A stretch of 64,000 nt of DNA, from contig NZ_JAYRTF010000016.1 of the NCBI RefSeq assembly GCF_041919735.1, positions 14,459-78,458 on the forward strand, written 5' to 3'. Source of the stretch: Acinetobacter sp. GTDB lineage: Bacteria; Pseudomonadota; Gammaproteobacteria; Pseudomonadales; Moraxellaceae. Of the stretch, positions 3,001 to 33,423 are shown piece after piece (within the stretch, counting starts at the first letter, position 1; every line of letters starts with the position of its first letter). The notes below the pieces were generated by a model, which ran no database searches, had not been told where the DNA came from, and saw only the letters and a list, made by a program, of their open reading frames with translations. The position numbers were made by a program, and so were the translations under genes.

Positions 3001-4412
3001 GATTGTGCCGGCACCGCCGCCGCTTCGATATCCTGCTGTACAAATGCAGTGAGTTCATGCAGCAGCTTTTGCGCTTCCGCACCCAGCACAACACGCTGGC
3101 CTGCAGCCAATGTATCGAATAAATGAATAAATTCTTGATGCGCTTGGGCAAACAGCTCAAAAGCATAGTTCAGATTCAGCAGTTCCGGTTTTTCCACCAG
3201 CACGTCATAGCCGCACTTTAATTCTTGGGTGAAATCATGAATGCCTGCAGATGCGCGGTTGTCCGTATGCTCTAAAAGCAGCTGCGACTGTGCGCTTAAA
3301 GTACGCAGATAATCGGGGAATTCCGCTTGCGCGCGGCTGTCAAATTCAAATTCGGCATCCAGCAGCTGATCAATATTCAACTCAATCAGCTTAGACACCA
3401 AGCCTTGCGGATTTAAATCTTCGCTGATTTCTTCAGCGGCAAAGCCGTAATCATTCCAAGCGGTATTGAATGTCTCATAAATTGCATCCAGCTGATGGCT
3501 GGCGCCCTGACGCATGGTCAGCAGATAATCCCGCACAAATTCAGCATACTGAATCAGCAAAGCGGTTTCTTTAGAAGTCGAAACAATGTCTTCTTGCAGC
3601 AGCGTCTTGAACAGATTCTCAACTTTTGAGCTGGCCTCAAAAATCTGATCAATTTGCGCCATGGATGAACTGCCGCGCAAAGTATGCAGCGCGCGGATCA
3701 GGCCATTGTAATCTTGATGTTTTTCATTTTCAGTTTTCAGAAACTGATCAATGGCATGCAGATGCTCTTCTGCTTCTTCAATAAAGATCGCCACTGTTTC
3801 TTCAATATAGCTGTCATCACTTGCAGCCGGAGCCTCAGTGCCTGCCGGATCAGCAATGGCCGCTTCTGCGCCTGCCGGTTCATCAGCCAATTCCAGACCG
3901 GTTACAGCCTGTTCTGAATTCAGCGTATCCGCCAGCGCCAGCAATTCCTGCAATGCAGGTTCAGGGCTTAAGCCTTGCTGCAGCTGCTGTCCAAGCATCA
4001 CCAGCGGACGCAAATCAACATCCAGCTCTGCCACTGTTTTAAACCGCGGGTAAAGTTTATATTGATAAACATTTAAAACCGTTTGGGCAAATTTCTGGAT
4101 CACTGGCGTCAGCGTAATGCTGCCTGAAAGGACACGGTTCAGCGTGTCTTCTACAACCCATGCCGTTTCACCGGCAGATTTAGCCCCCACCATGCGGCCA
4201 GACCCTTTTAAGGTATGGAAATGACGGCGAATCGTAGTCAGCGTTTCTTGATTGTTCGGTTCTTCTAGCCAACCCGTAAATAAAGAATTTAATTCAGCAA
4301 AGATCTCTTCTATTTCTTCAACAAAAATTTCTAAAATTTCTGCATCTTGATCTAGATAGCTATCTTCCGGAAGCGTAGTCGTTTCTACTAAATTTTTTAA
4401 TATTTCTTTCAT
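1..4412 (-). CDS. chpA: ChpA, CheA-like hybrid histidine kinase/response regulator of the Pil-Chp system (3' end runs off the window start)
   Basis: Absent from the ORF track because the stop lies outside the window. Read by hand from ATG at 4412 (MKEILKNLVET). The same frame gives four Hpt motifs (HTLKG ~4216, HTLRG ~3685, HTLKG ~2758, HSIKG ~2152), the kinase motif HMLRNAIDHG (~1200) and the receiver end GVTHYMGKPFQE at the edge. Lies downstream of pilJ. Confidence 0.93.
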   Translation of the reverse strand, partial: MKEILKNLVETTTLPEDSYLDQDAEILEIFVEEIEEIFAELNSLFTGWLEEPNNQETLTTIRRHFHTLKGSGRMVGAKSAGETAWVVEDTLNRVLSGSITLTPVIQKFAQTVLNVYQYKLYPRFKTVAELDVDLRPLVMLGQQLQQGLSPEPALQELLALADTLNSEQAVTGLELADEPAGAEAAIADPAGTEAPAASDDSYIEETVAIFIEEAEEHLHAIDQFLKTENEKHQDYNGLIRALHTLRGSSSMAQIDQIFEASSKVENLFKTLLQEDIVSTSKETALLIQYAEFVRDYLLTMRQGASHQLDAIYETFNTAWNDYGFAAEEISEDLNPQGLVSKLIELNIDQLLDAEFEFDSRAQAEFPDYLRTLSAQSQLLLEHTDNRASAGIHDFTQELKCGYDVLVEKPELLNLNYAFELFAQAHQEFIHLFDTLAAGQRVVLGAEAQKLLHELTAFVQQDIEAAAVPAQSEPAAIILAASAGVDYAQLSQRIASARTQNAEQANTDFDEDLLAIFLEEAEELLAGIDADLSTWTQDQSNIGALNNLMRYLHTLKGGANMISASHIGLIAHELESVYERIIRNQIAVNPVLIRIIRLVQDDVSDRIQTIRDQGVDYPGDAVIDIVQNIQSIAGGSAIAAAAETAPVSEAAQAEAVEEELSVPAEEAKIAEERKPEAVEGAAEDALGEVAAAEQPIAEPASSALSDEDAALRSVVEETFLEEAEEVLIHTEALLTQWFEQRSDRSILLQLQRAAHSIKGGARMVENEPVAAIAYQLETTFEQFAVHHFSSNAYDNLLQTTVSWLKQAIFEKDYSNFDSIKFSLDSIEFSNVTAQLPDNFSRSAQTPAVRGFEFIQGDGVEPPSMQGEWTDTLKSDNSNEMIRISADLVEKMIDLAGENSINRSRIEMDLGQLGNTLNEMELAIKRLADQLRRMDGELESQIIAKHGSDHSRYADFDPLEMDQYSSLNQLSKSLAESASDLVDFKSTLSEKIRDTEGLLLQQSRIQAEIQESLMRTRLVPFSRMLPRLQRIVRQTSSTLNRPAELIVQNTEGELDRTILERLVTPFEHMLRNAIDHGLEDAGDRLEQNKPAVGNIVLNISRQGTDVLVSFSDDGKGIDEEKIKAKALSQGLIKANQVMEKQEILQLIFHPGFSTAQSVTQISGRGVGLDVVQSEIKALGGHVMVESELGKGTTFTIRVPTTVAVSDALMVKAGDQQFAISLAQIDRIVRIAPSALEDYFSSRADTFKIDNTHYKLRYLSEFVSNQPAPRLGQVAHSLPVLLIKGNSGQTIALLVDQLIGSRAQIVVKPIGQQFSNVGAIAGATILGDGQVCLILDGQNIARQIQTTQRVSNNKDQRDLSRHGNARRLVMIVDDSVTVRKVTSRLLERQGFDVVTAKDGVDAMEQLENVRPDLMLLDIEMPRMDGFEVTNLVRHHDIHQDLPIIMITSRTGEKHRERAFSLGVTHYMGKPFQE

Positions 4413-4532
4413 AGCTCAGGCTTCTTACGTTTTGCCACCAAGCAGGGTGCTCAAACTTAATTGTAACCATCACACGAGACCCGGCTTATTCTATGCAGAG
4501 TTCATCTTGATGAGGCATTATCTGTGTTTTGT

Positions 4533-15135: not shown

Positions 15136-16509
15136 TTAGCAGAATTTGAGACCGCCGAAGCAATTTGGAGTGACATATTGATTATTTAAAATTTGAGAAC
15201 TTAAAGAAATTGTCGCAGGCAGAGCCGTCGTATATGTATTTAAGTCAATATTCAACACTTTAGTGACTGGTGTATTTAACAACGTACCTAATGATTCTGA
15301 TGTGCTTGTTTGTATTCTATTTTTTTCATCCAACAAAAAATCTGATACTAAGTTGGCTACTTGCGGTAAAACAGCAGAAATATCAACCTCTTCTTTTGCC
15401 TGCAAATATCCGAGTTGGATCGGATTATTAAATGACATCCACCATCCTTTCAGTGCCGTATCCTCTGCTTCGGTTCCCGCCCACTTTACAGTATCACTTT
15501 GCAGTGATAAATAACCACCAGTACCAGTCAAAGGAATATTATGCACCATACTTAACGATTGCAAGAAAGCAATCTCCATATTTAAGTTTTGAATTTTTGA
15601 ACCCTCGCCCATTTTAAAAATAGCTTTTTTTGCCAACCCTAAAATTGGATCAAAAGTCACTAAAAGCTGATCATTCGCAAATTGCGCTTTTTGCTCTGGA
15701 GTCATATTCGAGCTTCCAGCCAATGGGATAGATTCAATATTTGCAGTGATTCCGGTCACTTTTGCAACAGTCATGCGGGAACCTGAAATTGTCGTTTCCG
15801 GCATATTAAATTTTACGTTAATGCTAGGTACTGTAATCCCTTTATTATCAGAACTTGTCGAGTCACTCTTGAATTGGCGCGGAAATTCCATCCCTAAAAT
15901 TGATGCAGTTAAATTACCTTTAATTTCTTCAGTCGTACTATCACCAAAGGTACTTTTCTTGGTATTCACATCACCTTGAGTCGCTGCCATTTTCATATAT
16001 CCGGAGAATGACTGAATACCGTCGCTTGGATTGCTAGTATTCTCTGTACCTGCTGTGAGTAAACCTAAAATTTGAGCAGCGCCTAAACGAAAACCAACCA
16101 CTTCCCGTGTTGAAGCTTGACCTTCATTTTTTATTGCAAACTCGACAAATGGATTGGTAATTTTAGCACTGCTTGATGCACGGCCATCGGCACCGTAACT
16201 ATCTGGCAATCCGCTCAAAGCTAAATTTGAAATATCAATATCACATTTTTTTGCACCATTGTCTCCGCCACAACCCAACTGCAGCGTTTTAATATTGGTA
16301 TTCAACTCCATTTCAGCATCTAAGCCAAGCTTAAAGAACTCGACCTTCTGATTCTTAGTATTGGTATAGACATAATTATCTTTGGAAAAATTCAATAGTG
16401 CCTGACCGTCAATTTTTGACATTTCTTCATCATTTAAAGGTTTAAAGCTAGCGCTATGGCCTGTGATCCACAGGCTGCTTATCATGGCAACAATAACTCT
16501 CTTTTTCAT
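15136..16509 (-). CDS. Secreted beta-rich FilA/DUF6160-like protein (start moved to MKKRVIVAM)
   Basis: RBS aaggaag before ATG 16509; signal peptide; mature N-terminal motif LNDEEMSKIDGQ; Gly/Thr/Asn-rich; ends CFGGLKFC. Confidence 0.75.
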   Translation of the reverse strand: MKKRVIVAMISSLWITGHSASFKPLNDEEMSKIDGQALLNFSKDNYVYTNTKNQKVEFFKLGLDAEMELNTNIKTLQLGCGGDNGAKKCDIDISNLALSGLPDSYGADGRASSSAKITNPFVEFAIKNEGQASTREVVGFRLGAAQILGLLTAGTENTSNPSDGIQSFSGYMKMAATQGDVNTKKSTFGDSTTEEIKGNLTASILGMEFPRQFKSDSTSSDNKGITVPSINVKFNMPETTISGSRMTVAKVTGITANIESIPLAGSSNMTPEQKAQFANDQLLVTFDPILGLAKKAIFKMGEGSKIQNLNMEIAFLQSLSMVHNIPLTGTGGYLSLQSDTVKWAGTEAEDTALKGWWMSFNNPIQLGYLQAKEEVDISAVLPQVANLVSDFLLDEKNRIQTSTSESLGTLLNTPVTKVLNIDLNTYTTALPATISLSSQILNNQYVTPNCFGGLKFC

Positions 16510-16550
16510 CTTCCTTGTCCCTATTTTTATTCTTGAATGCATTTTAAGAT

Positions 16551-18821
16551 TTATCGAGGGGTAATCCCTAATGAACTGCGCATCACACCGCCTGGTATCG
16601 CTATATCGGCAATTTTCTGCATTGTCCCCACTGGTGCAATTGCCAATTCAGCGGTAAATGGTTTACCTAAACTAGCTGTAGTGCCTAAACGATTAAATTT
16701 AATTTGATTATCTAGAACCACGGTATCTTTTTGCATATGAATCCGCGATTCTAAAGCAATATCACCTTGAATCTTATTTAAATTAATACTGGATTGAGTA
16801 GATTCACCAGTTTTACTAACATCATCATTAATTAAACTAATATAGCTGCCGCGTTCATTACCTGTTAAAGGGTTAAATTGAAAATTTGCTTTTAAGGATA
16901 GGAAGTTAGTATCTGGTGTTCCATTTTCACTTTCTAAACCTGGAATTATAAAGATTTCACCTTTACCATCTAATTTGAAAGCGATTGTTGTTAAGACATC
17001 ATCTTTCTTAGAGAAATTATCAATTGGAACAACTTTTTTAGCGCACTGTGTCTGGCCGGCAGTACAGTTATATAAAGAGCCTGGCAACTGTCCAATTGCC
17101 ACTTCCGCCTGTGCAGCCATCAGCAAGCTGTCCGCCTTTACATAGATCTCATTCTCTTCAAAACCGATAACTCCTTTTGATTTAATATATGAATCAATAT
17201 TTCTTAAACCGGCATAGTAATTGACTTCTTCACCATGGCTGCCTTCCGCGCCATCAATGATAATGATGGACGTTGTGTTTGGGGTGCCTGTTTTCGTGTC
17301 GATACCGTAGCCATCGGTTGACATTGCCAAATCATAGCCAAGGCCCATTTTCGCGGTTCCGCTTTTATTTATATAATCTTTTGAATAAAGCGCCACATTC
17401 GCATTTAAATTATAAATCGGTATGCCCAAACCCCATGTTGAAGCTTGCTTAGCGCCGGCATTGATGTCTGCAATTGAGTTATCTGAAATAAAGCGCGCTT
17501 TACGTGCCAATGCCTGAAAATCCATCCCGCGGATTGCAGCTAAAACCATATTTTGCGCATTGGCAGTTGGTGATGGATTATAAATTTGCTCCGCTGTTGC
17601 TGCGCCCAATACATTTTTTATTTGTTCATTAACCACAAAACTTAGAGAGTTAGAACGTATGTTATTAAGATAAATATCACCTAAATCCAGATATGCATTT
17701 TGCAGGTTTACTGGCGCAGCAGGGTCATTGCTAGTTCGCACATTTAACCGTGTTAAGTTCGAAAACTCGATTGCATAACTGCCTGTACCGGTATGTCCAA
17801 GTTCGAATATTGTTGGATTTGAACCTGCATGCAAAAAATCTGCCGACAGGCCAAAATGCAAACCGCCTGCATTTTTAAAATCATAGCCAGTGACTGCTGT
17901 CGCCATGGTCTCGGCCGCATTTCCGCTGCCGCGATTGACTTGCGTAAATTGCGCAACGCCGGTTTGATTCGAGTTCAGGAATATTTTTGCGTTGGTTAAT
18001 TCTCCAGATGCACCCATTCGGATCAAATTACCTTGATTTGATCCCTCGGATCCATAACGGAAATCAATATTCACTCCTGGATTGGTTGCTATACCGTTAC
18101 GGCTGCCATGAACATCAGTTTTATCCTCAACCCTTCCTAAAGTGACAACGTGATCTGTTTTTCCATCTCTAGACTTGGTCGTCAAAACCATTCCTTCAGA
18201 TGAATCCACATACATATAGCCATCTGCCGCAAAATTAAAGTTAAAATCTTTAGCTGTTACTGCTTGGCCATTTTGACCATAGCCAATGCTTGCGTTTTGC
18301 AGACTAAAGCTGAAATGCGCAATATCATCACGGTTAAATAACCCATTGGTGGTTGCTAGATAAACTTTTAAAGGTGAAATCGTCGAAAGACTCAAAGAAC
18401 CTAAATTCTGATTCACCTCACCAGCAGCGCAATGGGGTTCACACATCAGCATGATCTTTGCAGCAGTTGCTGTAAATGGTGAAACGCTAGCGCTTAATTG
18501 AATACCCGCACCTTTCGCCCCTGTTTCCGTCGTGGTAGCCCCTACATCTAAATCGACTTGAGATTTAATACTGGCATTGCCTTGCGCCGCCTGAATATTT
18601 ACATCATGCAAGCCTAATTTTATGGGATTGGTTCCTACCCCGGAGTAATCAATCCAGTTAGCTTGATCAATATTTACCCGCGACACTTCATGAGTAATCG
18701 TGATTCCATCTTGCCCGGTCACTTGTTCTAAATTTTGATCATTCAGCGCTTCTAATGCATAGCTTTGATTTGCAATACAGATGCATACAGCCAACAAATT
18801 TAATTTTGTAATTTTACGCAT
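16551..18821 (-). CDS. Secreted FilA/DUF6160-like protein, 756 aa
   Basis: Signal peptide followed by LEALNDQNLEQVTGQDGITI, close to the FilA-type N-terminus as I recall it. Confidence 0.8.
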   Translation of the reverse strand: MRKITKLNLLAVCICIANQSYALEALNDQNLEQVTGQDGITITHEVSRVNIDQANWIDYSGVGTNPIKLGLHDVNIQAAQGNASIKSQVDLDVGATTTETGAKGAGIQLSASVSPFTATAAKIMLMCEPHCAAGEVNQNLGSLSLSTISPLKVYLATTNGLFNRDDIAHFSFSLQNASIGYGQNGQAVTAKDFNFNFAADGYMYVDSSEGMVLTTKSRDGKTDHVVTLGRVEDKTDVHGSRNGIATNPGVNIDFRYGSEGSNQGNLIRMGASGELTNAKIFLNSNQTGVAQFTQVNRGSGNAAETMATAVTGYDFKNAGGLHFGLSADFLHAGSNPTIFELGHTGTGSYAIEFSNLTRLNVRTSNDPAAPVNLQNAYLDLGDIYLNNIRSNSLSFVVNEQIKNVLGAATAEQIYNPSPTANAQNMVLAAIRGMDFQALARKARFISDNSIADINAGAKQASTWGLGIPIYNLNANVALYSKDYINKSGTAKMGLGYDLAMSTDGYGIDTKTGTPNTTSIIIIDGAEGSHGEEVNYYAGLRNIDSYIKSKGVIGFEENEIYVKADSLLMAAQAEVAIGQLPGSLYNCTAGQTQCAKKVVPIDNFSKKDDVLTTIAFKLDGKGEIFIIPGLESENGTPDTNFLSLKANFQFNPLTGNERGSYISLINDDVSKTGESTQSSINLNKIQGDIALESRIHMQKDTVVLDNQIKFNRLGTTASLGKPFTAELAIAPVGTMQKIADIAIPGGVMRSSLGITPR

Positions 18822-18849
18822 ATCAACATCCTTTTTGAAATTATAAAGA

Positions 18850-19554
18850 TCAACAGCGGCTGCCTGAAGCGCCAGTACAGTTATAACTGAAAATCTTTAA
18901 ATCTCCATTCATATGCAAATTGCCATGCATATTCAATCCCATAAATCCTGTTTCAGTCCCTTTATCAAAAGCTGGAACGTCTGTTAAAAATGTCGTTTTT
19001 TTACCATTAGCATCTACAGAATATGCTTTATATTGACTGTAAACACTGCTCTGCAGATAACCTTTAACATTTGAATCATCAGTTTCAACAGAAAGGTTAT
19101 CAAAGCCCAGATTTCTAATTTTTAGAGGCTTATCATCAAAAAAAGAAAGGTTCATTGCAGTCTGCGGATTACCATCCTTATTTTGAATTGTGGTACCAGC
19201 CAATGAAAATTTATCAATTTGCACTGTCCCCTGAATTTGCTTAAAAACCAGCCATTTTTGATTATCACCATCTTTATGATTATTGGGAGAAAAAGCGAAA
19301 CGGCACTGTATATCCTGCACACAGTTATACCCATAGTAAGCATTGATTACCTTACCATCCGCATTCCGCTCAGAAATATCAGTTAAACTCATATCATTGG
19401 CATAACGATGGTTTAATGACATCGTCAAGCTTAAATCCGCCCCTCCCTGGCCGCTTGTTTGCTGCATTTCTTGCTGGTTCAAACTAGAGAGTTCTGCATG
19501 GCTGATACTCGCAGTGAACAATAATGCACTTATTGATAATTTACTCATTATCAT
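18850..19554 (-). CDS. Secreted FilA/DUF6160-like protein, 234 aa
   Basis: Signal peptide (SISHA) followed by LNQQEMQQTSGQGG; C-terminal Cys pair. Confidence 0.75.
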   Translation of the reverse strand: MIMSKLSISALLFTASISHAELSSLNQQEMQQTSGQGGADLSLTMSLNHRYANDMSLTDISERNADGKVINAYYGYNCVQDIQCRFAFSPNNHKDGDNQKWLVFKQIQGTVQIDKFSLAGTTIQNKDGNPQTAMNLSFFDDKPLKIRNLGFDNLSVETDDSNVKGYLQSSVYSQYKAYSVDANGKKTTFLTDVPAFDKGTETGFMGLNMHGNLHMNGDLKIFSYNCTGASGSRC

Positions 19555-19561
19555 CTGCTCC

Positions 19562-21559
19562 TTATAGTCCTGTTGTTTTTATTTTCAAATGCTGAATCAG
19601 CACGCCATCAATGACAGCAGAACCCATATTAACTACAGAACCTGAAACATTTTTAAATACCACACCAGTTGCACTTGCATCACGATTTGCTTTGAGCATA
19701 TTTGTCGCTGGATCCAGCGTTACGCTGCCGACAGAAATACTGCTATGCGTTGCATTTGTTCCTTGATAATTTACCGATGCGCCACCTGCAGTTACCATAG
19801 ATGTATTAGAACCGCAATATGCAACATTACAAGTTGAACCTTTGAAAGAAGCTGTTGTTAAGTTTGTCCCAGTATTAAAGGTCGGATTTGGATCTGTATC
19901 TTTATACCAAGTATAAATTTTAGAATAAATTTCAGGTACATTAGGAATATGCGTTACTTCCAGAATAATATTATTGCCCTCAGAACCGATAATAAAAGGC
20001 TGATACATATTTCCCAGGACTAAATTCATATTTGCACTGTAAAGATATAAACCCTCAACAGCATTAAATAGCGGCGCATTACTGCCATCCAATGCCGGTG
20101 TAGCTGCTGTTCCATCATCTGTATCTGTTTTAGGAGCAGTACTGATACGAATACCTCTTGCATCTAAATCAGTATCAGTATCTTTAAGCGTTGCAGGATT
20201 ATCATTGGTATTCAGACGAATAATGGATGCCATACCTAGAGTCTGATTTTGCTGTGCCAAACTGGATGATTGTGTTTGAAATAATCGGACTTGTGATCCA
20301 TCAATACTTAAGCCATTCGCCACAAGCTGAGTGCGTAAACGGTATTCTTTGTCCAAACCGCTCGTTGGCGCGCCAGTAACAATATCTACTTCACTACTTG
20401 AATCCAGCGAACGTGAAAAAATATCCATCCAAAAACCGAGTTTAATTTTATCTTCCACGCTATTTCCGCCAACCTGCGCTAGGGGCGCTTCAAGTGCGAT
20501 ATAGGCAACTTTATCTTTATTAGAGCCAGTAAATTGCTGTATATCGGCTGCTGTACCTGAGCGCAATAACCATGGATTGGCTGCTGAACCCCAGTTAATT
20601 CCTTGATTACTGTATCGCTGATTCATATTGCCATTGCTTTTAGATAAGGCCAAACCATAGATAAATATATCAGCCTTGGTTCTAGATGCTTTTAACGCAG
20701 CCACATGATCTGTGGTATTCAATGCATTCGCTGCATCTGCAAGTGCTGATGCTTTCAACTCAGCTTCTTTTTCTGCATAAGATGCCTGTGCTTTCAACTT
20801 TGCGGCACGTATTGCTCGCAAATCCATTTCAGCATCTGTTTTGCTTTCCAGCAACCCATCAGTATAAGCTGTTATCTCTGCTGCTTTACTGGTTCGAATT
20901 TCAGCACGTACTGCCTCATGTGCCCATGCTTGAGTTTCCTCTTTATTCATACAAACTAAACTGCTTGTATGGAAGCACCAGTTATAGCTGTTGTATTTAT
21001 CTTGATACAAAGTATTATAGCGACTTACATAATAAGTTTGGGCTGCATATTCTTCGACTTTTTGGCTATCAAAGCTTTCTTTATAAGTTGCGCTGTAGCC
21101 ACTTTTTATATCTTTTCTGAGAGCTGCGTCATTATAGACCTTGCTGTATTCAGCATTTTTTACATCTGTATAATATTTCTGATAATAGCTGGGTACAACT
21201 GTGCTATATTTTTGAAAATAAATATTGTCATATACCGCTTGCCGGCTTTGTTCAAATAGCTTCTCATAGTTGCCGCCGCGCGGAATAATACGGATAAAGC
21301 CTGTATCTTTTTTTGAAGCTTCAAGCAGCTTCACTGGATCTGTTAAAGCACCATAGCTGGAAGCGGCCGAAACATCATTCGGCCCCTGAAACACCATCTT
21401 GAAGTTTTCAGGCAGCAACGCAACGCCTTCACCGGTCGTTGCTGAAAGCACAGAATCAGATAAATCCTGAAGTGCGTATACGGATTGCGTCAAAAGCATA
21501 GCTACAGCTACGGCCACGCAATTCTGGCGGAATGTGAAAATTTTATTAACACCAGTCAT
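19562..21559 (-). CDS. Secreted FilA/DUF6160-like protein, 665 aa, with a long helical insert
   Basis: Signal peptide (QSVYA) followed by LQDLSDSVLSATTGEG; first gene of the four-gene operon. Confidence 0.75.
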   Translation of the reverse strand: MTGVNKIFTFRQNCVAVAVAMLLTQSVYALQDLSDSVLSATTGEGVALLPENFKMVFQGPNDVSAASSYGALTDPVKLLEASKKDTGFIRIIPRGGNYEKLFEQSRQAVYDNIYFQKYSTVVPSYYQKYYTDVKNAEYSKVYNDAALRKDIKSGYSATYKESFDSQKVEEYAAQTYYVSRYNTLYQDKYNSYNWCFHTSSLVCMNKEETQAWAHEAVRAEIRTSKAAEITAYTDGLLESKTDAEMDLRAIRAAKLKAQASYAEKEAELKASALADAANALNTTDHVAALKASRTKADIFIYGLALSKSNGNMNQRYSNQGINWGSAANPWLLRSGTAADIQQFTGSNKDKVAYIALEAPLAQVGGNSVEDKIKLGFWMDIFSRSLDSSSEVDIVTGAPTSGLDKEYRLRTQLVANGLSIDGSQVRLFQTQSSSLAQQNQTLGMASIIRLNTNDNPATLKDTDTDLDARGIRISTAPKTDTDDGTAATPALDGSNAPLFNAVEGLYLYSANMNLVLGNMYQPFIIGSEGNNIILEVTHIPNVPEIYSKIYTWYKDTDPNPTFNTGTNLTTASFKGSTCNVAYCGSNTSMVTAGGASVNYQGTNATHSSISVGSVTLDPATNMLKANRDASATGVVFKNVSGSVVNMGSAVIDGVLIQHLKIKTTGL

Positions 21560-26281: not shown

Positions 26282-27082
26282 TTATTTTTTCACCGTGCTG
26301 ATAAAGCTGATCATGGCAAACAGCCAAATAAATAGGATAAAACTGCGCTCCCGCGTAAAATGTGCCACATCAGAGCCATGCACAATATTATGCCGTGTCG
26401 CAGTCACTGTTGAACTGCTGTCCATTTTCAGCGCCTGCAGCTCTAAAAAATACGGATTAATATCGCTGGCAATTTTTACCTTATGCCATAAGCTTTTCAC
26501 TTCATGGCCTTTGAGGCCCGGCACAATTTTATAGACATCGACATATTTGCTTTGATTCAGCTGCAGATAACCGCGCTCTGCCAGCGCCTCGGTCAAAATC
26601 CCTTCGATTTGACTATACAGCACCGTCACACAGCCGGCATATGCCTGCTGCTGATACATTTGCAGGCATTGCTCAATCACAGCCCGGTGTTTAGGCAAAT
26701 TCACGCCAATCTGCAAGGCATCGACAGCATTCAGCAATTCTTTTTGAAAATATTCCTGTTCAATTAAATCCAGCAGTGCAAATTGCTTAATCTCAGTTTC
26801 ATTTTCATTGGCCATTTTCCAGAAATACAGCAGATTCAAAGCATCGTTGGCCGTGGCTGCATCGCTTTCAAATTCAATCTGATCGGCCAGCATATCAAAA
26901 TAAGATTCCGTCTGCGCCAAACCACGAAGCGCCGCCACCAGCTGGCCATGCGCTGCAGAACCCATGCTTTGCAAATACTGTTCAGCAGTTTTCAGGATCT
27001 GGCTGCCCAGCTGCTTTTGACTGCCGGCATTTTGCTTAATGCGCGTCACGGGCTGTGCAAAATCATAATCATCATCGATCAT
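26282..27082 (-). CDS. Hypothetical helical protein with a C-terminal HEPN-like RxxxxH motif
   Basis: 266-aa ORF containing YSQIEGIL and TRHNIVHG. Confidence 0.7.
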   Translation of the reverse strand: MIDDDYDFAQPVTRIKQNAGSQKQLGSQILKTAEQYLQSMGSAAHGQLVAALRGLAQTESYFDMLADQIEFESDAATANDALNLLYFWKMANENETEIKQFALLDLIEQEYFQKELLNAVDALQIGVNLPKHRAVIEQCLQMYQQQAYAGCVTVLYSQIEGILTEALAERGYLQLNQSKYVDVYKIVPGLKGHEVKSLWHKVKIASDINPYFLELQALKMDSSSTVTATRHNIVHGSDVAHFTRERSFILFIWLFAMISFISTVKK

Positions 27083-27592: not shown

Positions 27593-29650
27593 GTGCGTAA
27601 TATTTTAGTCACTAACGCCCTTCCATACGCCAATGGCCCGATCCATATGGGTCACTTACTCGGTTATATCCAAGCAGATATTTGGGTTCGTGCCATGCGT
27701 GCAATGGGTCATGACGTGACTTATGTCTGCGCGGACGATGCTCACGGTACAGCCATTATGCTGCGTGCCGAAGCCAATGGCATTTCACCGGAAGCACAAA
27801 TCGCCAATGTGCAAAAAGAACACATCCGTGATTTTGACGGTTTTGGTGTGCATTTTGACCATTATGACTCAACCAACAGTGCCGAAAACAAAGCGCGCTC
27901 GGAAGAGATTTATCTTAAAAACCGCGAAGCGGGCAACATTGCTGTGCGTCCTGTCACACAGTTATTCGACCCTGAAAAAGGCATGTTCCTATCAGACCGT
28001 TTCATTAAAGGCACCTGCCCGAAATGCAAAGCGGAAGATCAGTACGGTGACTCATGTGAAGTCTGCGGTACAACGTATAACGCGACTGAATTATTAAATC
28101 CGCGTTCTACTTTGAGCGGTGCAACGCCTGTTGAAAAATCTTCAGATCACTACTTTTTCAAATTGCCAAACTTTGGTGAATACCTGCAAAAATGGACGCG
28201 TGATGAAGGCCGCCTACCAACATCAATTGCCAACAAGCTGGATGAATGGTTTGAAAATGGCTTGAACGATTGGGACATCTCACGTGATGCACCTTACTTC
28301 GGTTTTGAAATTCCAGATGCGCCGAACAAATACTTCTATGTTTGGGTAGATGCGCCGATCGGCTACATGTCGAGCTTTGAAAATTACGTCAAAACCAAAC
28401 GTCCAGATTTAAACTTTGCAGACTACTGGAAAAAAGACTCTGACAAAGAAGTGTATCACTTCATTGGTAAGGACATTGTTTACTTCCACGCGCTGTTCTG
28501 GCCTGCAATGCTGGAAGGTGCGAACTACCGTACGCCGACTGGTTTATTCGTGAATGGTTTCTTGACTGTAAATGGTCAAAAAATGTCGAAATCACGCGGC
28601 ACGTTCATTAAAGCGGAAACCTATTTAGAGCATTTAAACCCTGAATATTTACGTTACTACTTTGCGTCTAAACTTTCGGATAAAGTTGAAGATTCTGACT
28701 TGAACCTTGATGACTTCGTGCAAAAAGTGAATTCAGACCTTGTGGGTAAAGTGGTGAATATTGCCAGCCGCTGTGCAAAATTCATTAACACCAAGTTTGA
28801 CAATAAGTTAAGTGCAACTTGCGTTGAGCCTGAATTGGTTCAAAGCTTTATTGATGCTGGTGCTTCAATTGCGGCTCAATATGAAGCGCGTGAATTTTCT
28901 GCGGCGATTCGTGAAATCATGGCGCTGGCTGACCGTGCCAACCAATATATTGATGAGAAAAAACCTTGGGCGCTTGCGAAGCAAGAAGATCAAGAACAGC
29001 AAGTACATGATGTATGTTCTGTCGGCATCAACTTATTCCGTCAATTGGCAGTTTACCTAAGCCCTGTACTGCCTACTTTGGCAGCGCAAGTTCAAGACTT
29101 CTTGAAACTTGCATCTTTCGATTTTGCTTCTGCGCAAACTATCTTGGTAGATCATGAAATTGCATTGTTCCAACCGTTAATGCAGCGTGTAGACCCGAAA
29201 GCTGTTGCAGCTATGGTCGATGCGTCTAAAGACTCTTTAGCTGCGGCGGCTGAACCTGCAAAAGTTGAAAAGAAAAAAGAGAAAAAGGCAGAAAAGAAAC
29301 CTGAGCCTAAAGTCGGTGAAGCAGAAATCATCAATATTGATGACTTTATGAAAGTTGACCTGCGTGTGGCGGAAGTTTTAGATGCGGCTCACGTTGAAGG
29401 TTCTGACAAGCTTTTACAACTTACCTTAAATGTCGGTGAAGCTGAGCCACGTAACGTGTTTAGCGGTATTCGTGAGTTCTACCAACCGGAAGACTTAAAA
29501 GGCAAATTAGTGGTGATGGTAGCGAACCTTGCGCCACGTAAGATGCGTTTTGGTATTTCGAACGGCATGGTGCTTGCAGCGGGTAATGGCGACGGCGTTT
29601 GGGTAATTTCACCTGAATCTGGCGCTAAACCGGGTGATAAAGTGTCTTAA
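27593..29650 (+). CDS. metG: Methionine--tRNA ligase with C-terminal tRNA-binding domain (GTG start)
   Basis: [11 protein letters not shown] (HIGH), KMSKS, zinc-knuckle CPKC/CEVC, C-terminal [11 protein letters not shown] domain. Confidence 0.98.
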
Positions 29651-29669
29651 TATCTAAACCGAAAATACG

Positions 29670-29701
29670 AAAAAGCCTCTACTGTTGTAGGGGCTTTTTT
29701 T
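29670..29701 (+). terminator. metG terminator
   Basis: aaaaagcctcta-ctgttg-taggggcttttttt. Confidence 0.85.
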
Positions 29702-29735
29702 ATTTTACCTCTCCGTTGCGAAGCAGTGCTTCTCA

Positions 29736-29889
29736 TCTCCTAAAAGGAGAGAGAAATTCTTTTTGAACCCCAAAGCGGTATTCAATCAGATGACTTGCGA
29801 CATGGATGTCGCCCGTTCGTTAGGGGCATATGGATGTGCCCCCTAACGAACAAAGGGGTTTTGTTACTTTTGCCCCGACAAAAGTAAAG
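29736..29889 (+). repeat. 154-bp structured direct repeat, copy 1
   Basis: Aligns without gaps to 31083-31236 with 15 mismatches by hand count. Internal hairpins: tctcc/ggaga, gcgacat/atgtcgc, gttcgttag/ctaacgaac and ttacttttg/caaaagtaa. Confidence 0.92.
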
Positions 29890-29894
29890 ACTAT

Positions 29895-30941
29895 TTAATT
29901 TGAATTAATATCAATACGAGCTAATCGAGTTGGTACATCTAAATATTCATAAATAGCATCAACTTTCTTTATCAAGTTCTTATCGTTAGTGAAGAATAAA
30001 TGACAAAAAGAGGCTATCTGTGCATGCGTAAAATCACTCATCGAACGTTGTACGCCGTTAACTTGATCCAATTTAGTATCTGAATAAAATCCAATAAAAT
30101 TCATCATATTGTAGATCACATTTATTTTTTCATACGTATAAAATTTTCGTCCTTTATTTTTCTCTAAAAGATTAATACTCCAAAAATCATCAATAGTAAA
30201 ATTTTGATACCCTTCTTTGTCCTTATATAAATTCCAAATTTTTTGGACTACATGAGGCGTATTTATATTATTTAGTTGTTTAGCAGAAATTCCCATTTCA
30301 TTTCTAAAAATTTCACTCATTTTATCCTGTTCAGCATTCTGCATGATTATTGAAAGCATTCCTTGTATTGCTTGTTCATAGATTTCTTTCTGATTATATA
30401 TTTCCTCATACATAGCTTCGGCTTTATATCTAAACTGAGGATAATTTTGTAATTCATCTTTAGCTTTCCTCATTTTTTCAAGATTCTTTTCATAGGAAAG
30501 TAAAGCTTCTATTTTAATTTCATCAATATTTTTATTTTTCTGATAACTTAATAAAAATTGATTGTAGATATGTTGATCCCAAAATCCCCACTCTTTTTTA
30601 TTTTCAACATAATTATTAAACCACTGCCTTACAGATGCTTGAGAAATCACACATGAATCTAAAAATTCTAAGTTTCTGTTATAAGCGATCCTTATATGAT
30701 AGGCATGTAACCACTCTAGAATGTTTAAATATTTCTCAAGTGTATTTTCTTTATGTTCTTCTTTTGAATTAAGAAAAGCTTTATAAATTTCACCTAAAGT
30801 CATATCAGAGTATACAACCTGAAAACTTTCTTTTAAGTAAGAATATACCTCATGAGTCGATTCAAAATTTTTAGCAAGTAAATCCAAAACATTTTGATCT
30901 AAATAAGCTAAGGGTTTTCCTGAATATTTTGGTTCGCTCAT
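29895..30941 (-). CDS. AT-rich PIN-like domain protein (putative RNase)
   Basis: N-terminal AYLDQNVLD, LGEI, C-terminal SDFTHAQIASFCHLFFTNDKNL; spot GC counts are mostly 20-30%, well below the flanking genes. Confidence 0.7.
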   Translation of the reverse strand: MSEPKYSGKPLAYLDQNVLDLLAKNFESTHEVYSYLKESFQVVYSDMTLGEIYKAFLNSKEEHKENTLEKYLNILEWLHAYHIRIAYNRNLEFLDSCVISQASVRQWFNNYVENKKEWGFWDQHIYNQFLLSYQKNKNIDEIKIEALLSYEKNLEKMRKAKDELQNYPQFRYKAEAMYEEIYNQKEIYEQAIQGMLSIIMQNAEQDKMSEIFRNEMGISAKQLNNINTPHVVQKIWNLYKDKEGYQNFTIDDFWSINLLEKNKGRKFYTYEKINVIYNMMNFIGFYSDTKLDQVNGVQRSMSDFTHAQIASFCHLFFTNDKNLIKKVDAIYEYLDVPTRLARIDINSN

Positions 30942-31082
30942 ACGATGCTCTTTTTCGTTAATTATTCAATTTACAACCAATAAAAATAATTAAACAATAT
31001 ATTTCTTTAAATTTTATAAAAATATTAAAACCATTTTTTATAGGTATCTACCTAAGCTTCTTTCAACACCTCTCCCTAGCCC

Positions 31083-31236
31083 TCTCCTAAAAGGAGGGAG
31101 AAATTCTTTGTGAACTCTAAGACGGTATTCAATCAGATGGTTTGCGACATGGATGTCGCCCGTTCGTTAGGGACACATGGACGTGCTCTCTAACGAACAA
31201 AGGGGCTTTGTTACTTTTTCCCCGACAAAAGTAAAG
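31083..31236 (+). repeat. 154-bp structured direct repeat, copy 2
   Basis: About 90% identical to 29736-29889, with the same hairpins. Confidence 0.92.
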
Positions 31237-31267: not shown

Positions 31268-31286
31268 CTTCTCCCGCAGGGAGAAG
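31268..31286. repeat. REP-like hairpin of the CTCTCCC-n3-GGGAGAG type
   Basis: cttctccc-gca-gggagaag. Confidence 0.55.
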
Positions 31287-31372: not shown

Positions 31373-31486
31373 TCAAGCCAGTACAAATTCCCAAATCACA
31401 TAGCCAATCCCAAACCCGAGCAAGGAATATGCCGTAATAATAAAATACACAAAACTTGCTTTGTTTTTCTTTTTCCAGAAACCCAT
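31373..31486 (-). CDS. 37-aa single-TM small protein (below the ORF track cutoff)
   Basis: MGFWKKKNKASFVYFIITAYSLLGFGIGYVIWEFVLA; RBS aggtgg upstream; terminator 31331-31358 downstream. Confidence 0.6.
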   Translation of the reverse strand: MGFWKKKNKASFVYFIITAYSLLGFGIGYVIWEFVLA

Positions 31487-31749
31487 TTCACCACCTAAAC
31501 TGGACAATTTTCACCATGTTAACGCGTATTCAGCCAAAAGTGAAATAGAGCTAAGTTTTTAATTTATAAAATATTTTAAACCTAAAATCAGTTTTTTAAA
31601 TTCTATAAAGTCAATATACAGATTCAAACTATTTATCTAATACAGATGCATCAATTTGCCTGCAAAACTCTAAATGCAAACAGCTTATTCTTCATTTTAA
31701 GCACTTAACATGTTAAAAAAGAAACAACATAACTGCATGAAATACAACA

Positions 31750-32727
31750 ATGAAAAATACCGCCCTTGCCATCTCCATTTCTTTTTTCGCAATCGTTCCA
31801 ATGCTTTCAAATGCTCAAGCAGCCAAAACCCTGCCGATGATTGAACAGCAGCCTCAGGTGGCCGGTTTTTATCAGCATCAAGCAGGAAAAACACAAATCA
31901 CCGCTCTGCTGGATGGCACCAACTATATGTCTCCTGCACTTTTCAAAGGCATTTCCCAAGACAAAGTCCATGAAATATTAAAGAAATATCATGCAGATAA
32001 GGCCCAAGGCGTACAAACGTCTATAAATGCATTTTTAGTGAATAACGGCAAGTCTTTAACCTTGGTCGATAGCGGCGCTGCCAGCTGTTTTGGCGCGCAT
32101 TTGGGTTCCGTACTCAGCAACTTAAAAGCATCCGGCTATAAACCAGAACAAGTCGATACCATTTTGCTGACCCACCTGCATCCCGACCATGTGTGCGGGA
32201 TTAGCAAAAACGGCGCCGCGAACTTTCCCAATGCAACGGTATATGTCTCCAGTGATGAAGCCAACTATTGGCTGAACCCAAAACAAGCCGGCAAAATTGC
32301 GCAGGATCAGCGCGCGAACTATCTAGGCACAGTCAAACATATCAAAGCGGCGCTGGCGCCCTATCAAGCCAAGAAACAATTTAAAACCTTTAAATCAGGC
32401 GACAAAATTGGCGACTTTGAAGTGATCAGCACGGCCGGGCATACACCGGGGCATTTCAGCTACAAGCTGAAAACCTCTGGCGAAGATGTGATCTTTATCG
32501 GCGATATTGTGCATTCGCACACGGTGCAGTTTGATCAGCCGGAAACGGCCATTGAATATGATATTGACCCGAAAGCTGCGGTTCAGACGCGCTTAAAGCA
32601 GTTTGCCGATTATGCGCAGCATGGACAGACCATTGCAGCGCCGCATTTGCCATTTCCGGGCATTGGCCATATTTATTCGGCAGATGGAAAGCACTATCAA
32701 TGGATGCCTGTGCATTTTAAAGACTGA
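31750..32727 (+). CDS. Exported metallo-beta-lactamase-fold hydrolase (methyl-parathion hydrolase / lactonase-like group)
   Basis: Signal peptide; THLHPDH, GHTPGH and GDIVH metal motifs; INAFLV..LVDSG. Confidence 0.9.
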   Translation: MKNTALAISISFFAIVPMLSNAQAAKTLPMIEQQPQVAGFYQHQAGKTQITALLDGTNYMSPALFKGISQDKVHEILKKYHADKAQGVQTSINAFLVNNGKSLTLVDSGAASCFGAHLGSVLSNLKASGYKPEQVDTILLTHLHPDHVCGISKNGAANFPNATVYVSSDEANYWLNPKQAGKIAQDQRANYLGTVKHIKAALAPYQAKKQFKTFKSGDKIGDFEVISTAGHTPGHFSYKLKTSGEDVIFIGDIVHSHTVQFDQPETAIEYDIDPKAAVQTRLKQFADYAQHGQTIAAPHLPFPGIGHIYSADGKHYQWMPVHFKD

Positions 32728-32799: not shown

Positions 32800-33423
32800 T
32801 CACTTCATCCCAAAGATCAGTTTCAATCCCAGCGCCGTCATCACTGCGCCGGCGGCACGGTCAAACACCGCTTTAAATTTCAAATAGACACGGCGCGGTT
32901 TCTCGGCTGACAGCGCAACCGCCACCAGTGAGCACCAGCCCGCATCAATAAAGAAACATAAGATGGGCAATACAAAATAAAAATAAGTTGGAATTTCTTT
33001 CGGCAACAGTGCGGTAAAAATACTGGCCAGCACAATCGCAATTTTAGGATTGGATAACTGCGTAATCAGGCCTGTAGTAAATGCGTGGCGCAACGACATT
33101 TGCGCAACGGCATCATCTTCGGAATGAATCGGCTCTTTGGCATGTTTAATAATTTTAAACGCCATCCAAAGCAGATATAAGCCGCCGCAAATTTTTAAAG
33201 CCAGATAAGCGGAAGGCACTGCCAATAAAAAGGCCTGCAAACCCAATACCGCCAATAAACCGAAAATCGCCGCGCCCGTTCCGGTACCTAAGGCGGTAAA
33301 CAGCCCATGCTGACGTGAAATTGCAATTGAATTTTTAGCCACATAAATTGATGTCGGCCCAGGACTCATTGCGCCCAGCATTAAAGCAAAAGCGATCGAG
33401 CCCAAAATCCAAAATGATTCCAA
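32800..33423 (-). CDS. LysE/RhtB family translocator
   Basis: MSPGP motif, GLITQLSNPK, several TM segments. Confidence 0.9.
   Translation of the reverse strand: MESFWILGSIAFALMLGAMSPGPTSIYVAKNSIAISRQHGLFTALGTGTGAAIFGLLAVLGLQAFLLAVPSAYLALKICGGLYLLWMAFKIIKHAKEPIHSEDDAVAQMSLRHAFTTGLITQLSNPKIAIVLASIFTALLPKEIPTYFYFVLPILCFFIDAGWCSLVAVALSAEKPRRVYLKFKAVFDRAAGAVMTALGLKLIFGMK

What the first reader, a model, noticed from the sequence alone, without database searches (positions are those of the whole stretch)
29707..31236. Single foreign gene bracketed by two 154-bp structured direct repeats at the 3' end of metG (cassette-like module)
Seen in sequence: 29736-29889 and 31083-31236 align without gaps with 15 mismatches in 154 (about 90%). 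Both are preceded by ACCTCTCC (29707 and 31068). Between them is one very AT-rich ORF whose stop lies 5 bp from the end of copy 1. No integrase or transposase is visible in the window. Inference: this repeat-gene-repeat layout resembles gene-cassette capture, in which the repeat acts as a recombination site or as a REP/MITE-like element mobilised in trans. Recombination between the copies would excise the gene as a circle and leave one repeat, making this a variable slot for accessory or defence genes.
Basis: partly seen in the sequence, partly recalled or inferred. Interest (0 to 1): 0.72.

Follow-up and report, generated by a model that had tools for sequence, protein, structure and literature searches.

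The report
Structured Acinetobacter repeat flanking PIN-like gene
The two repeats are real, but they are copies of a genus-wide, about 100-base structured intergenic element that comes and goes on its own, sitting in a hypervariable accessory and defence gene slot downstream of metG, and they are not the ends of a captured gene cassette.

Summary
Window 29736-29889 and 31083-31236 match at 90% over 154 nt. They are the only two copies in the window and they bracket one 27.6%-GC ORF.

The repeats belong to a conserved Acinetobacter family that I call E, with a core of about 100 nt. The core has two hairpins whose loops read CA-N-GGA-YG, followed by a 3' domain. Covariation across 62 distinct copies is massive, and no Rfam family matches.

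Most E copies lie at core loci: ruvA-E-ruvB-E, a CoA-transferase/thiolase operon, and next to Ham1, NadB/Tmk and IlvD. Some form inverted pairs. E is present, absent or inverted between A. baumannii strains.

The metG-downstream region is a truly variable slot, holding at least nine different AT-rich genes across strains. One of them is the PADLOC defence candidate PDC-S64.

The window's gene is a PIN-like protein. Its homologues, down to 28% identity, occupy the same slot in other species with zero, one or an inverted E. E therefore does not deliver the gene.

No integrase or transposase lies within the 4.5-48 kb stretch I scanned.

The "variable slot" reading is supported. The "cassette recombination site" reading is not. 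The "scattered REP/MITE-like structured repeat" reading is partly supported. The best functional lead, which is inferred only, is a CsrA-binding RNA module.

The parts
27593..29650 (+). metG (methionyl-tRNA synthetase), the core gene on the left of the slot
   Evidence: ORF. Orthologues are 91-94% identical in aa. Pfam tRNA-synt_1g appears on orthologues.
29669..29700 (+). metG rho-independent terminator
   Evidence: Terminator scan. It is conserved in A. pecorum, L108 and L135.
29707..29795 (+). 5' extension of copy 1. It holds ACCTCTCC, a 22-nt segment GTTGCGAAGCAGTGCTTCTCAT (29715-29736) that copy 2 lacks, a small hairpin CTCTCC-TAAAA-GGAGAG, and about 40 nt leading to hairpin 1
   Evidence: Sequence. 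Alignment with c2, A. amyesii, A. pecorum and L108.
29796..29889 (+). E core, copy 1. Hairpin 1 is 29797-29812 (loop UGGA). Hairpin 2 is 29815-29851 (loop AUGGAU). The X stem pairs 29855-29858 with 29873-29876. The Y stem pairs 29864-29872 with 29879-29887. The core ends at ...AAAAGTAAAG
   Evidence: CM score 105.9 bits. Structure and covariation. Fold z-score -5.6. It is 95% identical to the single E of A. amyesii at the same position.
29895..30941 (-). Cargo: an AT-rich 348-aa PIN-like protein, convergent with metG
   Evidence: No Pfam or PADLOC hit. D15, E51, D303 and D320 are invariant in 38 homologues. AF2 pLDDT is 88, and the top Foldseek hits are all PIN or VapC but weak. One source names a homologue as a PIN-like domain protein.
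30942..31067 (-). AT-rich 5' region of the cargo (presumed promoter)
   Evidence: Sequence. A 90-nt remnant of this junction is present in L064.
31068..31142 (+). 5' extension of copy 2. It holds ACCTCTCC-CTAGCC-CTCTCC and the hairpin TCTCCTAAAAGGAGGGAGA, which is terminator-like
   Evidence: It resembles the c1-position allele of L108.
31143..31236 (+). E core, copy 2. Hairpin 1 is 31144-31159, hairpin 2 is 31162-31198, and the Y stem is 31211-31234
   Evidence: CM score 98.6 bits. Compensatory G-C to A-U and G-U changes in hairpin 2 relative to copy 1.
31268..31286 (+). Small hairpin CTTCTCCCGCAGGGAGAAG, related to the hairpins in the 5' extensions. The junction with E is conserved in L087
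31331..31358 (.). Bidirectional terminator-like hairpin that closes the variable part of the slot
   Evidence: The homologous sequence is in A. pecorum.
31750..32727 (+). MBL-fold hydrolase, the conserved right flank of the slot in many strains
   Evidence: Pfam Lactamase_B. Synteny.
32800..33423 (-). LysE-family exporter, a conserved right flank. It lies directly next to the cargo in A. amyesii, R933-2 and ANC 3832

Best explanation
The two repeats are two copies of a conserved Acinetobacter intergenic element, E. E is a core of about 95-100 nt with three parts. The first is a short hairpin, GCGACA-UGGA-UGUCGC. The second is a long, sequence-variable but always paired hairpin with a CA-N-GGA-YG loop and a conserved bulged U. 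The third is a 3' domain with two mutually exclusive stems, ending in ...AAAAGUAARG. E is a low-copy element found in many intergenic regions. These include positions inside core operons and between convergent gene ends. It occurs in either orientation, often as inverted pairs, and it is gained, lost or replaced between closely related strains. The stretch between metG and the MBL/LysE genes is a hypervariable one-gene slot for AT-rich accessory or defence-type genes. In the window's lineage the slot holds an old, fast-evolving resident, a PIN-like predicted nuclease. Copy 1 is the orthologue of the single E of A. amyesii. Copy 2 is an extra copy of the same long unit (5' extension plus core) on the other side of the gene. 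The bracket therefore arose from turnover and duplication of E in a recombination-prone hot spot, not from capture of the gene as a cassette. How E most likely works is inferred, not shown. When transcribed, its two hairpin loops match the high-affinity CsrA/RsmA site. E would then act as a portable CsrA-binding RNA module, either as a small sponge RNA or as a UTR or intercistronic element. At the DNA level, two copies 90% alike with a 31-nt identical run could allow rare RecA-dependent loss of the gene.
For: Family and structure. The element was found in Acinetobacter nosocomialis, pecorum, lactucae, calcoaceticus and sp. ANC 5054, in A. baumannii and at 95 metagenome loci. In 62 distinct copies, 93.7% of cells are paired against 77% in shuffles. 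The covariation score is 0.43 against 0.12 (0 of 500 shuffles reach it), and slid controls give about 0.07. Hairpin 2 has compensatory changes at 14 of 14 pairs. GGA occurs in the hairpin-2 loop in 55 of 62 copies, which the search pattern did not force. Copies found only by the model keep CA(A/G/U)GGAUG in hairpin 1 while the stem covaries. This equals the RUACARGGAUGU and CANGGAYG consensus quoted in PMC13643297.

Core-locus copies. E occurs as ruvA-E-ruvB-E, between CoA-transferase and thiolase, and next to Ham1, NadB/Tmk and IlvD.

Turnover. An A. baumannii RNA-seq strain lacks E at three of three loci examined, with clean joints. Two strains whose flanks are 98-99% identical carry different E alleles in opposite orientation at one site.

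Slot variability. Nine cargo families occur at the metG slot.

Same gene with a varying number of E. Homologues of the gene sit in the slot with zero, one, two or an inverted E.

No recombinase. None was found.
Against: No direct evidence that E is a discrete transcript. No sigma-70 consensus promoter lies before either copy. RNA-seq reads from paralogous copies fall on both mate orientations. G-U (36 cells) is no more common than A-C (29 cells) in the stems. That pattern fits a DNA-level or two-strand constraint as well as an RNA constraint. Only 2-3 GGA sites occur per element, far fewer than in CsrB. The only Rfam similarity is a sub-threshold rsmX hit (24.5 bits, E = 0.28). E abuts the 3' end of AT-rich genes within 5-26 nt in about a quarter of the loci. 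In one A. baumannii locus, E plus an AT-rich gene are present or absent as one 1536-bp unit. Simple independent turnover does not explain either of these two facts.
Confidence: 0.6

Rival explanations
1. Cassette-like module. E is a recombination site. A gene plus one E is excised as a circle and inserted next to a resident E by a recombinase acting in trans, which makes the metG 3' end an integron-like slot.
For: Variable DNA starts exactly at the borders of the E core. The stops of six unrelated convergent AT-rich genes lie 5-17 nt after ...AAAAGTAARG. The stops of eight co-directional AT-rich genes lie 11-26 nt before hairpin 1. Convergent-cargo copies lack the 3' extension that most other copies carry. 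E plus a 439-aa gene form one 1536-bp indel in A. baumannii. Cargo is exchanged at the slot. Hairpin 2 is variable in sequence, conserved in structure and has a conserved bulged base, which loosely recalls attC.
Against: The same gene family sits in the same slot with no E in at least four species, and with E in either orientation in others. E brackets ruvB and lies in core operons. GTT...AAC is in the reverse order of the attC core sites. No integrase or transposase was found between 4.5 and 48 kb. No c1 x c2 joint was seen in four metagenome runs. Each slot keeps its own E subfamily, so E does not visibly travel with genes between loci.
Confidence: 0.15
2. E is a selfish DNA repeat of the REP/REPIN, ERIC or MITE type. 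An unidentified enzyme, for example a Y1/HUH transposase that reads hairpins in single-stranded DNA, mobilises it in trans. The GGA loops would then be protein-recognition motifs on DNA, with no RNA function.
For: E shows presence/absence and orientation polymorphism at orthologous sites between strains. Head-to-head and tail-to-tail doublets and a triplet occur. E is located between convergent genes and within operons. The stems are 94% Watson-Crick, with G-U roughly equal to A-C. Hairpin 2 has a conserved extrahelical T. One copy lies on a genuine 135-kb plasmid.
Against: No terminal inverted repeats, and no target-site duplication in the filled-versus-empty comparison. Copy number is low: 2 in 64 kb, and 3-6 blastn places per A. 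baumannii chromosome. Paralogues differ completely in hairpin-2 sequence, so there is no recent copy-and-paste burst. The ruvA-ruvB copy is retained across species with compensatory changes. No transposase was found. The loops match the CsrA RNA consensus at two sites 31 nt apart.
Confidence: 0.25

Closest known systems
Integron gene cassettes and attC sites
   Same: A repeat-gene-repeat layout. The repeat is variable in sequence but conserved in fold, with a bulged base. The slot holds different single genes in different strains.
   Different: The core-site order is reversed (GTT...AAC at the base of the stem instead of RYYYAAC...GTTRRRY). There is no IntI or attI. The cargo has its own upstream region and is convergent with E. 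The same gene occurs without any E. E is mostly at core loci.
REP/BIME/REPIN and ERIC (IRU) intergenic repeats of enterobacteria and pseudomonads (own knowledge)
   Same: Structured extragenic repeats found after gene ends and inside operons, in either orientation, in inverted doublets or clusters, and variable between strains.
   Different: E is about 100 nt with three or four separate hairpins rather than one palindrome. It has no GTAG head or TIR, a copy number of only a few per genome, deeply diverged paralogues, and GGA hairpin loops.
Csr/Rsm sponge sRNAs (CsrB, CsrC, RsmX, RsmY, RsmZ)
   Same: GGA in hairpin loops with flanks matching ACA-N-GGA-UGU. Several paralogues per genome. One subfamily ends in a rho-independent terminator and gives a weak rsmX hit. 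Acinetobacter has CsrA and a CsrA-binding 'CsrB' (PMC13643297), and rsmX/Y/Z were predicted in ADP1 (PMC1488887).
   Different: Only 2-3 GGA sites per element. No GacA-type upstream site or consensus promoter was seen. Many copies are embedded in operons or lie antisense to neighbouring genes. All scores are below every Rfam threshold.
A. baumannii 'Group 3 / group III' homologous sRNAs (PMC5320573, PMC6182133)
   Same: They are described as four homologous transcripts with a short hairpin of conserved loop sequence plus an extended hairpin. They are expressed and were validated by Northern blot as a family.
   Different: Identity could not be checked, because no sequences or usable coordinates are held. 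This is a lead only.
Defence and accessory gene hot spots between conserved core genes
   Same: Fixed core flanks (metG and MBL/LysE). One AT-rich gene is swapped among strains. The set includes Mrr_cat, AAA_21/AAA_15, DUF3644, DUF2971, PDC-S64 and PIN-like genes.
   Different: The slot is only one gene wide, and it nearly always contains an E element at the 3' end of the variable gene.

Membership tests
Integron cassette / attC | Inverted core sites in the order RYYYAAC ... GTTRRRY, forming the R box of a folded attC | tested here: not met
   Hairpin 2 starts with a nearly invariant GTT and ends with AAC(A), which is the reverse order. The rest of the stem is free to vary.
Integron cassette / attC | IntI integrase with attI and Pc next to the array | tested here: not met
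   No Phage_integrase or any recombinase appeared in Pfam scans of 31 ORFs between 4.5 and 48 kb. The outer 4.5 kb and 16 kb of the window were not scanned.
Integron cassette / attC | The gene is mobile only together with its attC, and empty or alternative cassettes are bounded by the same site | tested here: not met
   Homologous genes sit in the same slot with 0, 1, 2 or an inverted E.
REP/BIME/REPIN | A 20-40 nt palindrome with a conserved GTAG head, in hundreds of copies | tested here: not met
   E is about 100 nt with several hairpins. There are 2 copies in 64 kb, 3-6 places per A. baumannii chromosome, and one strict-pattern copy per 1-2.4 Mb contig.
REP/BIME/REPIN | Inverted doublets or clusters in intergenic regions | tested here: met
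   Head-to-head pairs (L029 type), tail-to-tail pairs (L041/L077 type) and a triplet (L042).
REP/BIME/REPIN | A cognate RAYT / Y1 transposase in the genome | not testable with these tools
   The source genome is not available beyond the window. None was seen among the ORFs scanned.
MITE | Terminal inverted repeats and a target-site duplication | tested here: not met
   All inverted repeats are internal hairpins. The filled-versus-empty comparison at the CoA-transferase/thiolase locus shows no duplication. This rests on one locus only.
Csr/Rsm sponge sRNA | Several GGA motifs presented in hairpin loops (A-N-GGA, CANGGAYG) | tested here: met
   The hairpin-1 loop is UGGA in 62 of 62 copies. The pattern forced this, but model-found copies keep CA(A/G/U)GGAUG with covarying stems. 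The hairpin-2 loop has GGA in 55 of 62 copies, which was not forced.
Csr/Rsm sponge sRNA | An independent gene with its own promoter and a rho-independent terminator | tested here: inconclusive
   No consensus promoter lies before c1 or c2. A -10-like TATCGT lies 5 nt before hairpin 1 in some subfamilies. A terminator is present only in the L063/L117 subfamily. Many copies lie inside operons.
Csr/Rsm sponge sRNA | Reaches the gathering score of an Rfam Csr/Rsm model | tested here: not met
   No gathering-level hit. The best hit is rsmX at 24.5 bits against a threshold of 56.
Csr/Rsm sponge sRNA | Binds CsrA and titrates it | not testable with these tools
   This needs RIP/CLIP or EMSA.
PIN-domain nuclease (the cargo) | PIN fold with four conserved acidic residues | tested here: inconclusive
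   D15, E51, D303 and D320 are invariant. All top Foldseek PDB hits are PIN or VapC (probability up to 0.99), but with E = 0.35-2 and TM about 0.4 on the target. No Pfam PIN hit.

The most novel reading that the evidence does not exclude
E is a portable CsrA-binding RNA module that also behaves as a mobile DNA unit. It inserts at gene 3' ends and inside operons, in either orientation, and so places new genes under Csr control. These include toxic single-gene defence nucleases in hot spots such as the metG slot. Its sharply defined 3' border may also serve as the preferred joining point for incoming AT-rich genes.
Probability: 0.15. Interest if true: 0.8.

Novelty: new variant of a known kind. 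Interest (0 to 1): 0.5.

Why it matters
Three points make this worth following up.

- **A new element family.** It defines a genus-wide, structurally conserved element in Acinetobacter that is absent from Rfam. Its two hairpin loops match the CsrA consensus. CsrA is conditionally essential in A. baumannii, and its RNA partners are poorly mapped. A family of small CsrA-site modules scattered in operons and next to accessory genes would therefore be directly testable and relevant.
- **A compact defence-gene hot spot.** The metG-downstream slot is a one-gene hot spot useful for mining new defence candidates. These include the PIN-like family here, a PDC-S64 homologue, and Mrr-like, AbiEii-like ATPase, DUF3644 and DUF2971 genes.
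- **A caution on layout.** A repeat-gene-repeat layout alone is not evidence of cassette capture.

Tried and rejected
- **Exact-protein look-up of MetG** found nothing.
- **Full-text search for the element's sequence motifs** found nothing relevant.
- **Matching E to published A. baumannii sRNAs failed.** No supplement is held for PMC6182133. The PMC5320573 supplement lists only locus tags. PMC11980544 is not held. SrvS is an integron-borne sRNA and is unrelated. Group 1 / C4-like sRNAs were rejected because their loop motifs differ and there is no Rfam C4 hit.
- **Strand-specific expression could not be settled.** The only raw-read runs come from an A. baumannii strain that lacks E at all three loci I could lay reads on. 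Reads from paralogues map ambiguously.
- **An earlier inference was withdrawn.** I had concluded that G-U pairs mark the + strand as the folded strand. Counting showed G-U roughly equal to A-C.
- **A conserved small ORF inside E was rejected.** Indels in hairpin 2 shift the reading frame between copies.
- **RNAalifold did not recover the 3'-extension hairpin**. Manual pairing shows only a 3-bp covarying outer stem.
- **A phage origin found no support.** The viral-contig scan gave no hit.
- **pdif/Xer modules were rejected by eye.** No XerC/XerD half-sites are present.
Full report
**Observation**

The repeat is real. Window 29736-29889 and 31083-31236 align without gaps over 154 nt at 90% identity. 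blastn within the window gives E = 4e-57, and there is no third copy. ACCTCTCC precedes both copies, at 29707 and 31068. A single 348-aa ORF on the minus strand (29895-30941) lies between them, with its stop 5 nt from copy 1. Its GC is 27.6%, against 46.4% for the window. metG ends at 29650, and its terminator is at 29669-29700.

**What the repeat is**

Scans of public collections recovered the element widely.
- A scan with the 3' hairpin found single matches in Acinetobacter nosocomialis, pecorum, lactucae, calcoaceticus and sp. ANC 5054.
- blastn found it in A. baumannii chromosomes and on one 135-kb plasmid.
- A two-anchor pattern found 95 metagenome loci.

The 62 distinct copies align cleanly and define a core of about 100 nt, which I call E. 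It has four features.
- Hairpin 1 is GCGACA-UGGA-UGUCGC.
- Hairpin 2 is a stem of about 14 bp whose sequence differs completely between subfamilies. It always pairs, carries a conserved bulged U, and has the loop CA-N-GGA-(U/C)G.
- A linker, ACAAAG, follows.
- The 3' domain has two stems. The 3' arm of stem X is the loop of stem Y, so the two cannot form together.

The named structure is well supported. 93.7% of cells are paired, against 77% in shuffles. The covariation score is 0.43 against 0.12, and 0 of 500 shuffles reach it. Slid controls give about 0.07. All 14 pairs of hairpin 2 and 4 of 6 pairs of stem X show changes on both sides.

A covariance model built on this alignment finds only the two copies in the 64-kb window, at 105.9 and 98.6 bits. 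It also finds extra, more divergent copies next to many of the metagenome copies. These extra copies keep CA(A/G/U)GGAUG in hairpin 1 while the stem covaries, for example GCCAGCA-GGGA-UGCUGGC and GUGGCA-AGGA-UGCCAC. GGA is in the hairpin-2 loop in 55 of 62 copies, although the search pattern did not force it.

No Rfam family reaches threshold. The only suggestive hit is rsmX at 24.5 bits (E = 0.28), on a subfamily that ends in a terminator. No viral contig carries the element.

**Where E lives**

Most copies have flanks of normal GC.
- E lies between ruvA and ruvB in at least nine loci. In L101 it also lies after ruvB, so two direct copies bracket a housekeeping gene.
- E lies between a CoA-transferase B subunit and a thiolase, as a convergent pair.
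- E lies after a Ham1-family gene, between NadB-like and Tmk genes, and between two IlvD-type genes.
- Head-to-head pairs, tail-to-tail pairs and one triplet occur.
- About two thirds of copies carry a further 3' extension, RRYAUYGCCUAYRCAA ... RGGCWGUG.

About a quarter of copies abut a low-GC ORF.
- In six cargo families the ORF is convergent, with its stop 5-17 nt after ...AAAAGTAARG. In these cases E lacks the 3' extension.
- In eight cases the ORF is co-directional, with its stop 11-26 nt before hairpin 1.

**E turns over between strains**

Stranded raw RNA-seq reads from one A. baumannii strain were laid on three E-bearing loci.
- At the PfpI-like/gatB locus, the reads join across a 1536-bp gap that removes E together with a 439-aa AT-rich gene.
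- At the CoA-transferase/thiolase locus, they join across 415 bp that removes both E copies. This leaves an intergenic spacer of about 25 nt.
- At the Ham1 locus, they diverge right after the upstream gene.

At that same Ham1 locus, two other A. baumannii genomes have flanks 98-99% identical. They carry different E alleles in opposite orientations.

Reads from paralogous E copies are present, so E is transcribed. They fall on both mate orientations, however, so the strand is unresolved.

**The metG slot**

Homologous loci share metG on one side and MBL and/or LysE on the other. Between these flanks they carry different AT-rich genes.

| Cargo | Locus |
|---|---|
| PIN-like, 348 aa | window |
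| Zinc-finger protein, 323 aa; matches PADLOC PDC-S64 at 7e-53 | A. pecorum (L005) |
| 42%-identical relatives of that protein, 307 and 309 aa | L031, L109 |
| Mrr_cat nuclease | L108 |
| AAA_21/AAA_15 ATPase | L087 |
| DUF2971 | L113 |
| DUF3644 | L107 |
| 177-aa ORF | L067 |
| 146-aa ORF | L064 |
| Remnant of the PIN-like gene | L103 |

Each of these loci has an E next to the 3' end of the variable gene, in either orientation. The "variable slot" reading is therefore correct.

**The cargo**

The protein has no Pfam or PADLOC hit. It has 71 homologues, with D15, E51, D303 and D320 invariant. The AlphaFold model is confident (pLDDT 88). Its best PDB matches are all PIN or VapC domains, though weak.

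Every homologue I looked up sits in the same slot, convergent with metG, while MetG itself stays 91-94% identical.

| Species | Cargo identity to window | E in the slot |
|---|---|---|
| A. amyesii | 89% | One E at the copy-1 position, 95% identical to copy 1; none at the copy-2 position |
| sp. R933-2 | 67% | None |
| sp. ANC 3832 | 61% | None |
| A. soli (three genomes) | 28% | None |
| A. indicus | 32% | None |
| sp. SwsAc6 | 29% | One full-length E, co-directional with the gene, so inverted relative to the window |

The gene is thus an old, fast-diverging resident of the slot. E was added at least twice, in both orientations. Copy 2 shares the 5' extension of the metG-side allele of L108 and lacks a 22-nt segment present in copy 1 and in A. 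amyesii. Copy 2 is therefore a second copy of the same long unit, not an unrelated paralogue.

**Mechanism**

What is shown:
- E is a discrete, structurally constrained unit with sharp borders.
- It is not needed for the gene to be in the slot.
- It is itself polymorphic.
- No integrase or transposase lies between 4.5 and 48 kb.
- No c1 x c2 joint appears in four metagenome or metatranscriptome runs that hold the locus, although contigs drop rare variants.

What is inferred:
- The two loops match the CsrA/RsmA consensus (RUACARGGAUGU, CANGGAYG; PMC13643297), and they are 31 nt apart. This is my own estimate of a spacing that would suit one CsrA dimer.
- I therefore favour a CsrA-binding RNA module that acts either as a small RNA or as part of the neighbouring mRNA.

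Evidence against that reading:
- No consensus promoter lies before either copy.
- The stems are 94% Watson-Crick, with G-U (36 cells) no commoner than A-C (29 cells). This fits a DNA-level constraint equally well.

A REP/ERIC-like selfish DNA element therefore remains a serious rival. The two readings are not mutually exclusive.

**Comparison and verdict**

- It is not an integron cassette. The core-site order is reversed, there is no IntI, and the gene occurs without the site.
- It is not a classical REP or MITE in size, copy number or ends.
- It is not a member of any Rfam Csr/Rsm family.
- It may be the "Group 3 / group III" sRNA family described for A. baumannii (PMC5320573, PMC6182133), but I could not check this.

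Noticed in passing
window 15136-21559 (minus strand): Four consecutive ORFs (468, 756, 234 and 665 aa) have GC of 0.37-0.41, against 0.46 for the window. Two of them carry DUF6160. This may be a second acquired block.
   Followed up: partly
window 29707-29756, 31068-31103 and 31268-31286; also L064, L103, L107, L108, L118 and L135:5205-5245: A second small repeat family lies next to E and next to the metG terminator. It has the form CCTCTCC(CTARCC)CTCTCC-TAAAA-GGAGAGGG and is hairpin- and terminator-like.
   Followed up: partly
window 29715-29736; L022:4733-4864, L037:729-862, L101:2039-2200, L062:7043-7159: A 22-nt segment, GTTGCGAAGCAGTGCTTCTCAT, is present in copy 1 and in A. amyesii but is replaced by CTAGCC in copy 2 and L108. 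Related TTGCG...AAGCAGTGCTT...CTCA inserts of 30-60 nt interrupt hairpin 2 or the 3' domain of other E copies. This may be a tiny insertion element.
   Followed up: no
E core, alignment A1 columns 66-101 (window 29853-29887): Stems X and Y both covary but cannot form together, because the 3' arm of X is the loop of Y. This could be a structural switch. One subfamily has lost X altogether (GGUUACUUUUUUAAAAAAGUGAC).
   Followed up: partly
window 31750-32727; orthologues in L131-L134: Orthologues of the MBL-fold gene on the right flank carry precomputed Pfam Anti-Pycsar_Apyc1 hits. This would be a cyclic-nucleotide-degrading fold next to a defence-gene slot.
   Followed up: no
window 31373-31507 (minus strand); L005 about 4390-4500: A 44-aa hydrophobic ORF with its own terminator is conserved between the window and A. 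pecorum, at the right edge of the variable region.
   Followed up: no
L005:4130-4330: In A. pecorum the slot holds a decayed duplicate of the N-terminal part of the MBL gene. This is a trace of past rearrangement.
   Followed up: no
window 26282-27082 (minus strand): A 266-aa ORF upstream of metG has no Pfam hit and only a weak PADLOC hit, to PDC-M12A (E = 0.005).
   Followed up: no
L011 (record titled Candidatus Kurthia equi MAG): This contig is near-identical to the A. pecorum metG locus. It is probably Acinetobacter contamination of that MAG.
   Followed up: no
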